A stretch of DNA of 207 nucleotides from Escherichia coli (GTDB lineage: Bacteria; Pseudomonadota; Gammaproteobacteria; Enterobacterales; Enterobacteriaceae). Location: assembly GCF_003334335.1 (NCBI RefSeq), contig NZ_QOWQ01000244.1, one strand, 5' to 3'. The translations under genes and the position numbers were made by a program. Position 1 is the first letter of the stretch. Every line of letters starts with the position of its first letter. Of this stretch, positions 1 to 207 are shown piece by piece. The notes under the pieces were generated by a model. That model saw only the letters and a program-made list of their open reading frames with translations. It was not told the origin of the DNA and searched no databases.

Positions 1-135
1 GCTGGCTCCAAGTGAAAACAGCATCGTGGTGGCAGAAAAACCACCGGCTGCCAGGGCTGAACCCCATAACGCCATCGAGGCTCCGGCCGTGATGAACGAC
101 CCCACGATGGCCGCCGCCCCCAGCACAATCTGCAG
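1..135 (-). other. Predicted membrane-embedded region of the encoded protein (window residues 25-69); about two helix-lengths, possibly a helical hairpin or a helix plus re-entrant segment
   Basis: 45 consecutive residues without D/E/K/R/H: LQIVLGAAAIVGSFITAGASMALWGSALAAGGFSATTMLFSLGAS. Small-residue motifs recur (GAAAIVG, AGASMALWG, AAGGF), and W-G-S at residues 48-50 is a possible turn or interface. Helix boundaries are not computed; this is by-eye hydropathy. Confidence 0.5.
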
Positions 136-207
136 TCCGCCCTTTCCGGCACCGGCCAGTCGCGGCACAATGTGGATGACCGTTCCCTCACCCAGCTGTT
201 CGTGAAG
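1..207 (-). CDS. Partial CDS (internal fragment, truncated at both window edges) encoding an integral membrane protein, probably a transporter/permease; family not resolved
   Basis: Seen in sequence: minus-strand frame (first codon at + 205-207, last at + 1-3) is open for all 69 codons. Translation: LHEQLGEGTVIHIVPRLAGAGKGGLQIVLGAAAIVGSFITAGASMALWGSALAAGGFSATTMLFSLGAS. Residues 25-69 contain no charged residue and are dominated by small and aliphatic residues. Codon usage looks genuine: Leu is CTG in 6 of 9 codons, Ala is GCC in 9 of 13, and third-position GC is about 67% (46/69). The two in-frame Met codons (+ 73-75 and + 22-24) sit inside the hydrophobic stretch and are not plausible starts. 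Inference: membrane protein, likely a transporter, from composition only. Confidence 0.75.
136..207 (-). other. Polar, glycine-rich extramembrane loop of the encoded protein (window residues 1-24)
   Basis: Translation LHEQLGEGTVIHIVPRLAGAGKGG carries all the charged residues in the window (H, E, E, H, R, K) and a Gly-rich stretch, AGAGKGG, immediately before the hydrophobic region. This is consistent with a loop connecting transmembrane helices; which side of the membrane it faces cannot be determined here. Confidence 0.4.

What the first reader, a model, noticed from the sequence alone, without database searches (positions are those of the whole stretch)
1..135. Unusually long uncharged Gly/Ala/Ser-rich stretch suggests tightly packed helices or a re-entrant element
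Forty-five residues without a single charge is longer than one typical transmembrane helix (about 20-25 residues). Glycines recur at window residues 30, 36, 42, 49, 55 and 56, with Ala/Ser between them. Such small-residue patterns are commonly associated with close helix-helix packing or with re-entrant/discontinuous helices that form substrate sites in secondary transporters. This is a structural inference, not a demonstrated function.
Basis: inference. Interest (0 to 1): 0.3.

Follow-up and report, generated by a model that had tools for sequence, protein, structure and literature searches.

The report
Hydrophobic helix pair of phage gpI
The window is part of a lambda-like prophage gene for tail-tip protein I, and its long uncharged Gly/Ala/Ser-rich stretch is that protein's already described pair of hydrophobic helices, which plug the tail tip around the tape-measure protein and are thought to enter the host outer membrane at infection, so it is real but ordinary and known.

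Summary
In the full protein the run is 59 residues.

The DNA is 100% identical to gene I (tail tip assembly protein I) of Escherichia phage PhiR5_1 and of an E. coli prophage, in the order M-L-K-I-J. The protein is 67% identical to lambda gpI. The stretch is gpI's helix H1, a variable loop and the start of helix H2, preceded by the end of a ubiquitin-like domain and a Gly-rich junction.

Published cryo-EM places these helices inside the tail-tip lumen around the tape-measure C-terminus. They disappear from the density when the tip opens on LamB, and outer-membrane insertion has been proposed but not observed.

Across 70 homologues the segment has almost no charges. Window G30 and G67 are invariant, G42 and G49 are partly conserved, and G36, G55 and G56 are not. 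I found no one-sided helical pattern of small residues. The protein is not a transporter and there is no re-entrant loop.

Novelty: already known. Interest: low.

The parts
163..207 (-). C-terminal end of the N-terminal ubiquitin-like (beta-grasp) domain of the gpI homologue: window residues 1-15, protein residues 78-92, LHEQLGEGTVIHIVP, including the last beta-strand
   Evidence: Pfam PF06805 Lambda_tail_I match. AlphaFold2 gives strand 87-92 and pLDDT above 90 for most of residues 14-92. Foldseek matches this domain to MoaD, SAMP1, ThiS and ubiquitin. P92 is present in 68 of 70 homologues.
136..162 (-). Gly-rich junction RLAGAGKGG (window residues 16-24, protein 93-101) between the ubiquitin-like domain and helix H1. 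It is the candidate processing site and holds the last charged residue (K99) before the charge-free run.
   Evidence: G96 is 97% and G101 is 89% conserved. Iyer et al. 2006 predicted cleavage by the JAB peptidase of gpK at the conserved C-terminal glycine of the ubiquitin-like domain. Modelled lambda gpI density starts at residue 101 in the closed state. [quoted passage not shown]
55..135 (-). Hydrophobic helix H1 (window residues 25-51, protein 102-128): LQIVLGAAAIVGSFITAGASMALWGSA
   Evidence: AlphaFold2 helix 102-128 at pLDDT about 50. Kyte-Doolittle 19-residue maximum is 1.89. Charged fraction is about 0 in 70 homologues and G107 is invariant. It corresponds to lambda gpI H1.
28..54 (-).
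   Evidence: AlphaFold2 shows a non-helical gap at 129-137. Columns 129-136 are 40-74% gaps in the alignment. Spacing between the invariant G107 and G151 varies from 26 to 53 residues.
1..27 (-). Start of hydrophobic helix H2 (window residues 61-69, protein 138-146, TMLFSLGAS). The helix continues beyond the window to about residue 155-158.
   Evidence: AlphaFold2 helix 138-155. G144 is invariant, and beyond the window G150 is 74% and G151 is 100%. It aligns to lambda gpI 137-GILFSLGASMVLGGVA-152, which is resolved in the virion.

Best explanation
The window is an internal piece of gene I (tail tip assembly / 'insertion' / plug protein gpI) of a lambdoid phage or prophage, read on the minus strand. 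It encodes the end of the N-terminal ubiquitin-like domain, a Gly-rich junction, hydrophobic helix H1, a variable loop and the start of hydrophobic helix H2. What published structures of lambda, T1 and F-pyocin homologues show: three copies of the C-terminal part sit inside the tail-tip cone. H2, and in one lambda structure also H1, form a tripod around the C-terminal coiled coil of the tape-measure protein. The following plug segment closes the channel, and C-terminal strands bind gpJ. When gpJ binds LamB the tip opens and H1 and H2 vanish from the density. What is inferred: the charge-free, small-residue-rich helices stay shielded in the lumen until triggering. They are then released towards the host and probably insert into the outer membrane, helping to open or line the exit route for the tape-measure protein and DNA. 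The lack of charge and the invariant glycines (G107, G144, G151) would serve both close helix packing in the virion and compatibility with a membrane. The ubiquitin-like domain is probably cut off near the Gly-rich junction during assembly.
For: Identity: the DNA matches PhiR5_1 and E. coli 2012EL-2448 at 100% inside 'tail tip assembly protein I', with neighbours M, L, K, I, J. The protein is 67% identical to lambda gpI over its full length, E = 2e-105, and hits lambda gpI PDB chains 8iyk/8iyl/8k35/8xcg and 9e7m, PF06805 and PHROG tail families. Architecture: beta-grasp at 14-92 with high confidence, then helices 102-128 and 138-155, and the N-domain matches MoaD, SAMP and ubiquitin. Conservation: charged fraction is about 0 at columns 104-157 in 70 homologues down to 30% identity, G107, G144 and G151 are invariant, and 59 of 70 keep an unbroken charge-free run. 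Hydrophobicity: Kyte-Doolittle 1.89 and 1.66, above the usual 1.6 threshold, and Wimley-White octanol sums of -2.6 and -3.9 kcal/mol. Literature: gpI trimer 135-223 forms a tripod and plug with a hydrophobic N-terminal end (PMC10721106). H1 and H2 are resolved from residue 101 in the closed state, lost in the open state, predicted transmembrane by TMHMM and proposed to insert into the outer membrane (PMC11101478). The Ur-lambda paper speaks of 'strongly predicted transmembrane domains' (PMC12617516). T1 gp34 forms the same tripod (PMC11945409). The F-pyocin PA0640 plug helices encircle the tape-measure C-terminus and its N-domain is cleaved off.
Against: Membrane insertion has never been observed. 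The helices simply become invisible in the open state, and in situ tomography could not resolve gpI. The octanol-scale hydrophobicity is only marginally favourable. To my knowledge, alpha-helical insertion into a Gram-negative outer membrane is unusual. The AlphaFold2 confidence for the helices is low, pLDDT 40-52. I had no dedicated topology predictor. Everything structural is transferred from homologues, with lambda at 67% identity, and was not measured on this protein.
Confidence: 0.8

Rival explanations
1. The helices have only a structural and assembly role. They clamp the tape-measure C-terminus and plug the tip, and after triggering they are simply released, never entering a membrane. 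On this view the hydrophobicity reflects burial in the protein lumen.
For: In every solved virion or tailocin structure the helices are protein-packed around the tape-measure coiled coil. The octanol-scale hydrophobicity is marginal, -2.6 and -3.9 kcal/mol. No membrane-embedded density has been reported.
Against: More than 50 consecutive columns have essentially no charged residue across homologues of only 30-40% identity. That is stricter than usual for a protein-protein interface. Both segments pass the Kyte-Doolittle transmembrane threshold. In the open state the residues following the helices point at the outer membrane.
Confidence: 0.17
2. The stretch is a flexible glycine-rich low-complexity linker between the ubiquitin-like domain and the C-terminal domain, as first described in 2006, with no defined structure.
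For: [quoted passage not shown]
Against: G107, G144 and G151 are invariant, and the hydrophobic positions are conserved (I/V/L at 104-106, 111 and 147-149; M/L at 155-156). The helices are resolved by cryo-EM in lambda, T1 and F-pyocin. Only residues 129-137 behave like a linker.
Confidence: 0.02
3. One reading: a re-entrant or discontinuous helix element, or tightly packed transmembrane helices, of a cellular secondary transporter.
For: The composition resembles small-residue-rich transmembrane segments.
Against: The protein is 226 aa and has only these two hydrophobic segments. It lies in a phage tail gene cluster and is a virion component. No transporter family matched in Pfam or NCBIfam.
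Confidence: 0.01

Closest known systems
Bacteriophage lambda gpI (tail tip assembly protein I; PDB 8IYK, 8IYL, 8K35, 8XCG, 9E7M)
   Same: 67% identity over the full length. Same gene order M-L-K-I-J and the same 103-nt overlap with K. Same ubiquitin-like domain, Gly-rich junction, H1, loop, H2, plug and C-terminal strands.
   Different: The H1-H2 loop is two residues longer and there is one deletion before H1. The neighbouring J protein and downstream fibre genes differ between the carriers. No structure exists of this particular variant.
Phage T1 gp34 'insertion protein' (PDB 9L9P) and P. aeruginosa F-pyocin PA0640 'tip plug protein' (probably the 200-aa chain 25vf)
   Same: Sequence-detectable homologues, E = 3e-19 and 1e-11. 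Both form trimeric tripods around the tape-measure C-terminus in the tip lumen.
   Different: Much more divergent. For PA0640, removal of the N-terminal domain has been shown experimentally. This has not been shown for lambda-type gpI.
Phage T5 pb3 plug domain (functional analogue)
   Same: It closes the tail tip at the same position and is proposed to interact with the outer membrane after triggering.
   Different: It is a domain inserted in the hub protein, not a separate gene product. No sequence homology was reported, and the T1 paper states there is no structural homologue in T5.
Viral class I fusion peptides such as HIV-1 gp41 (analogy from my own knowledge, not tested)
   Same: A Gly/Ala-rich, uncharged, moderately hydrophobic segment kept buried in a metastable assembly and released towards the target membrane on receptor binding.
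   Different: Unrelated proteins. gpI has two helices of about 20-27 residues and acts on a bacterial outer membrane, and no fusion is involved.
MoaD / ThiS / SAMP / ubiquitin beta-grasp proteins (N-terminal domain only)
   Same: Foldseek TM-score up to 0.74 normalised to the target. A conserved glycine lies at the end of the domain (G96, 97%).
   Different: Here the domain is fused to the hydrophobic helices. No E1-like partner is present, only the JAB/NlpC peptidase gpK encoded next door.

Membership tests
Lambda gpI / tail tip assembly protein I | Full-length sequence homology to lambda gpI | tested here: met
   67% identity over 225 aligned positions, E = 2e-105. phmmer E = 1.3e-79 to PDB gpI chains.
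Lambda gpI / tail tip assembly protein I | N-terminal ubiquitin-like beta-grasp domain (Pfam PF06805) | tested here: met
   PF06805 at E = 4.8e-9 on the truncated 193-aa version. AlphaFold2 pLDDT above 90 for residues 14-92. Foldseek matches MoaD, SAMP1 and ubiquitin.
Lambda gpI / tail tip assembly protein I | Position in the tail-tip gene cluster between K (JAB/NlpC peptidase) and J (central fibre) | tested here: met
   L001 and L002 annotations give M/L/K/I/J, the same as lambda.
Lambda gpI / tail tip assembly protein I | Charge-free segment of two hydrophobic helices (H1, H2) after a Gly-rich junction | tested here: met
   A 59-residue charge-free run, two predicted helices, and conservation in 59 of 70 homologues.
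Lambda gpI / tail tip assembly protein I | Trimer in the tail-tip lumen contacting the tape-measure C-terminus and gpJ | not testable with these tools
   Known only from cryo-EM of homologues. The AlphaFold2 monomer is low-confidence in the C-terminal half.
Alpha-helical transmembrane hairpin | Two segments of at least 19 residues that pass hydropathy thresholds | tested here: met
   Kyte-Doolittle 19-residue maxima are 1.89 and 1.66. Wimley-White octanol sums are -2.6 and -3.9 kcal/mol, which is only marginal.
Alpha-helical transmembrane hairpin | Actual residence in a lipid bilayer | not testable with these tools
   Proposed but not observed in the literature.
GxxxG / glycine-zipper helix-packing motif | Conserved small residues aligned on one helical face (about 100 degrees periodicity) | tested here: not met
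   The moment of the small-residue fraction at 100 degrees is not above permutations, p = 0.96 for H1 and 0.54 for H2. The conservation moment gives p = 0.10 and 0.36. The many small-xxx-small pairs are expected at 51% Gly/Ala/Ser. Individual glycines G107, G144 and G151 are nonetheless invariant.
Re-entrant loop / discontinuous helix of secondary transporters | Embedded in a polytopic membrane transporter | tested here: not met
   A 226-aa protein with only these two hydrophobic segments, no transporter family hit, and a phage tail context.

The most novel reading that the evidence does not exclude
After receptor triggering, the three H1-loop-H2 hairpins of the gpI trimer insert into the host outer membrane and form or line an alpha-helical pore for exit of the tape-measure protein and DNA. 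That would be a rare alpha-helical outer-membrane channel. The hairpins would be primed by gpK's JAB peptidase cutting off the ubiquitin-like domain at the conserved Gly-rich junction encoded at window nt 136-162. Both steps have been proposed in the literature, and neither has been demonstrated for lambda-type phages.
Probability: 0.3. Interest if true: 0.5.

Novelty: already known. Interest (0 to 1): 0.1.

Why it matters
It matters little as a discovery. The sequence is an exact copy of an annotated lambdoid prophage gene found in about a third of complete E. coli genomes (1,763 of 5,426, up to 11 copies per genome). The hydrophobic helices were described in cryo-EM papers from 2023 to 2025. 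The general question they touch is still open: how a siphophage tail crosses the outer membrane, and whether gpI's helices enter it. The conservation data here name G107, G144 and G151 and the complete absence of charges as the positions to mutate. The window itself adds nothing new to that question.

Tried and rejected
1. Plus-strand coding. The two plus-strand ORFs of 26 and 59 aa are shadows. Substitutions against related phages concentrate on codon position 3 of the minus-strand frame, and only that frame has homologues.

2. Structured RNA. Rfam found no match at E up to 1.

3. One-face small-residue or glycine-zipper periodicity. Not significant.

4. NCBIfam returned no family. Pfam covers only the N-terminal domain, so the hydrophobic segment has no Pfam model of its own. 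The weak Pfam hits over it (PETase, DUF4225, DUF3693, E from 0.16 to 2.3) are treated as composition-driven noise.

5. The AlphaFold2 monomer gave the helix boundaries, but at pLDDT 40-52. It therefore cannot show whether H1 and H2 pack as a hairpin. The Foldseek hits concern only the ubiquitin-like domain.

6. The transporter or re-entrant-loop reading was rejected on gene identity.

7. No dedicated topology predictor (TMHMM, DeepTMHMM) was available. I used Kyte-Doolittle and Wimley-White scales, the latter typed in from memory, and cite the TMHMM result reported for lambda gpI.

Full report
**Observation**

That frame is open across all 207 bases and reads LHEQLGEGTVIHIVPRLAGAGKGGLQIVLGAAAIVGSFITAGASMALWGSALAAGGFSATTMLFSLGAS. 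Glycines are at window residues 30, 36, 42, 49, 55 and 56 as stated, and also at 6, 8, 19, 21, 23, 24 and 67.

The run without D/E/K/R/H covers window residues 23-69, which is 47 residues. The run is cut by the window end. In the full protein it is 59 residues, 51% Gly/Ala/Ser. In shuffles of the full protein, a run of at least 45 appears in 365 of 50,000 and one of at least 59 in 12 of 50,000.

**What the DNA is**

- The window matches at 100% inside the CDS 'tail tip assembly protein I' of Escherichia phage PhiR5_1, and inside 'tail assembly protein' of a prophage in E. coli 2012EL-2448.
- Related copies at 80-99% identity occur in 1,763 of 5,426 complete E. coli genomes, with up to 11 places per genome, and in many Stx-converting phages.
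- The gene order is tape measure (H), M, L, K, I, J, as in lambda.
- Mismatches to lambda (13/8/33 by codon position) and to phage phi330 (1/0/7) fall on the third position of the minus-strand frame. That frame is the coding one, and the plus-strand ORFs are shadows.
- Rfam finds nothing in the window.

**Gene start**

The annotated CDS is 193 aa from a GTG. An ATG ORF of 226 aa (L001 5770-6450) overlaps the end of K by 103 nt, exactly as lambda I (14773-15444) overlaps K (14276-14875). It aligns to lambda gpI from residue 1 with 67% identity, E = 2e-105. I use this numbering, in which window residue n is protein residue n + 77.

**Anatomy**

- Pfam recognises only the N-terminal domain, PF06805.
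- AlphaFold2 on a 70-sequence alignment gives a beta-grasp domain at 14-92 with pLDDT above 90. It then gives helices 102-128 and 138-155 at pLDDT 40-52, and a poorly predicted C-terminal part.
- Foldseek matches the N-domain to MoaD, SAMP1, ThiS and ubiquitin. This agrees with Iyer et al. 2006.
- The window therefore holds five pieces:
  - nt 163-207: the last strand of the ubiquitin-like domain.
  - nt 136-162: the Gly-rich junction RLAGAGKGG.
  - nt 55-135: helix H1.
  - nt 28-54: a loop.
  - nt 1-27: the first nine residues of helix H2.

**Conservation**

The HMMER search of 1.84 billion cluster representatives found 3,222 relatives. I aligned 69 of the hits with the query, at 30-91% identity to it.

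| Feature | Result |
|---|---|
| Charged residues, columns 104-157 | fraction about 0 |
| Window G30 (G107) | invariant |
| Window G67 (G144) | invariant |
| G151 (outside window) | invariant |
| G150 (outside window) | 74% Gly |
| Window G42 | 76% Gly |
| Window G49 | 49% Gly, 76% small |
| Window G36 | 13% Gly, 64% small |
| Window G55 / G56 | 16% / 27% Gly, 40% gaps |

G55 and G56 lie in a loop whose length varies. The spacing between G107 and G151 ranges from 26 to 53 residues. 59 of 70 homologues keep one unbroken charge-free run across both helices, median 54.5 residues. At least three of the exceptions look like database artefacts.

I tested whether small residues or conservation follow a 100-degree helical periodicity. 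They do not do so significantly: p = 0.96 and 0.54 for smallness, and 0.10 and 0.36 for conservation. A one-face glycine zipper is therefore not shown.

**Hydrophobicity**

Kyte-Doolittle 19-residue maxima are 1.89 for H1 and 1.66 for H2, both above the customary 1.6. Wimley-White octanol sums are only -2.6 and -3.9 kcal/mol. The segments can plausibly span a membrane, but only marginally.

**What is already known**

- The lambda virion structure modelled a gpI trimer (135-223) as a tripod. It supports the C-terminal coiled coil of the tape-measure protein in the tip lumen and acts as a plug. The authors noted the hydrophobic 137-GILFSLGASMVLGGVA-152 (PMC10721106).
- The LamB-bound structure describes gpI as an unresolved N-domain, helices H1 and H2, a plug (159-175) and beta-strands. 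Residues from 101 are seen in the closed state and only from 167 in the open state. H1 and H2 are predicted transmembrane by TMHMM and are proposed to insert into the outer membrane (PMC11101478).
- The Ur-lambda study resolves residues 134-222, mentions 'strongly predicted transmembrane domains', and could not see gpI in situ (PMC12617516).
- T1 gp34 and F-pyocin PA0640 form the same tripod. For PA0640 the N-terminal domain is removed proteolytically before the tip joins the tube.
- Iyer et al. predicted in 2006 that the JAB peptidase of gpK cleaves at the conserved glycine that ends the ubiquitin-like domain. Here that glycine is G96, 97% conserved, followed by G101 at 89%.

**Mechanism**

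Shown in homologues: the helices are packed inside the tip around the tape-measure protein, and they leave that position when the receptor opens the tip.

Inferred: they then enter the outer membrane. The strict absence of charge and the invariant glycines would serve both tight packing and membrane compatibility. The main rival is a purely structural role without membrane insertion, which I put at about 0.17. The linker reading and the transporter reading are essentially excluded.

**Verdict**

It is wrong in its framing, because this is not a transporter, there is no re-entrant element, and in the virion the helices are not in a membrane. The feature is already known, and interest is low.

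Noticed in passing
L001 5770-5868 (upstream of the annotated start of gene I); same region in L002: The PhiR5_1 and RefSeq annotations start gene I at a GTG (193 aa). The ATG ORF of 226 aa overlaps K by 103 nt as in lambda, aligns to lambda gpI from residue 1, and restores the first strand and helix of the ubiquitin-like domain. G21, L23 and G27 are nearly invariant in homologues. The annotated start is probably 33 codons too short. Phage phi330 annotates the long form.
   Followed up: yes
L002 3060-4223: In the E. coli 2012EL-2448 prophage, an 'ompC' porin gene sits inside the tail gene cluster between the M-like tail gene and L. PhiR5_1 has no such insert at that place. It may be a prophage-borne porin cargo gene.
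   Followed up: no
Protein P0145, aligned in A1: It looks like lambda gpI with every Ala changed to Val and every Thr to Ile across the hydrophobic stretch. That is the pattern expected from C-to-T conversion, so it is probably an assembly of bisulfite-treated lambda spike-in DNA, a database artefact. P0125 and P0173 break frame at G107 and look frameshifted.
   Followed up: partly
Proteins P0006, P0007, P0017, P0087, P0092, P0105; phrog_31: Database entries join the gpI sequence to NlpC/P60 (K-like, PF00877) or to minor tail protein L (PF05100). The PHROG profile for central tail fibre J contains a gpI-like stretch at profile positions 149-276. Some may be real K-I or I-J fusions, as noted by Iyer et al., and others may be frameshift errors across the K/I overlap.
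   Followed up: no
Window nt 136-171 (protein 90-101, IVPRLAGAGKGG): The end of the ubiquitin-like domain resembles the C-terminal ...FFPPVTGG of E. coli MoaD as I recall it (from memory, not checked). The conserved G96 would take the place of MoaD's penultimate glycine, which fits a processing site just before helix H1.
   Followed up: partly
L001 1522-4094: In PhiR5_1 the tape-measure gene H is annotated as two adjacent CDSs (1522-3855 and 3855-4094). This may be a frameshift or a split annotation.
   Followed up: no
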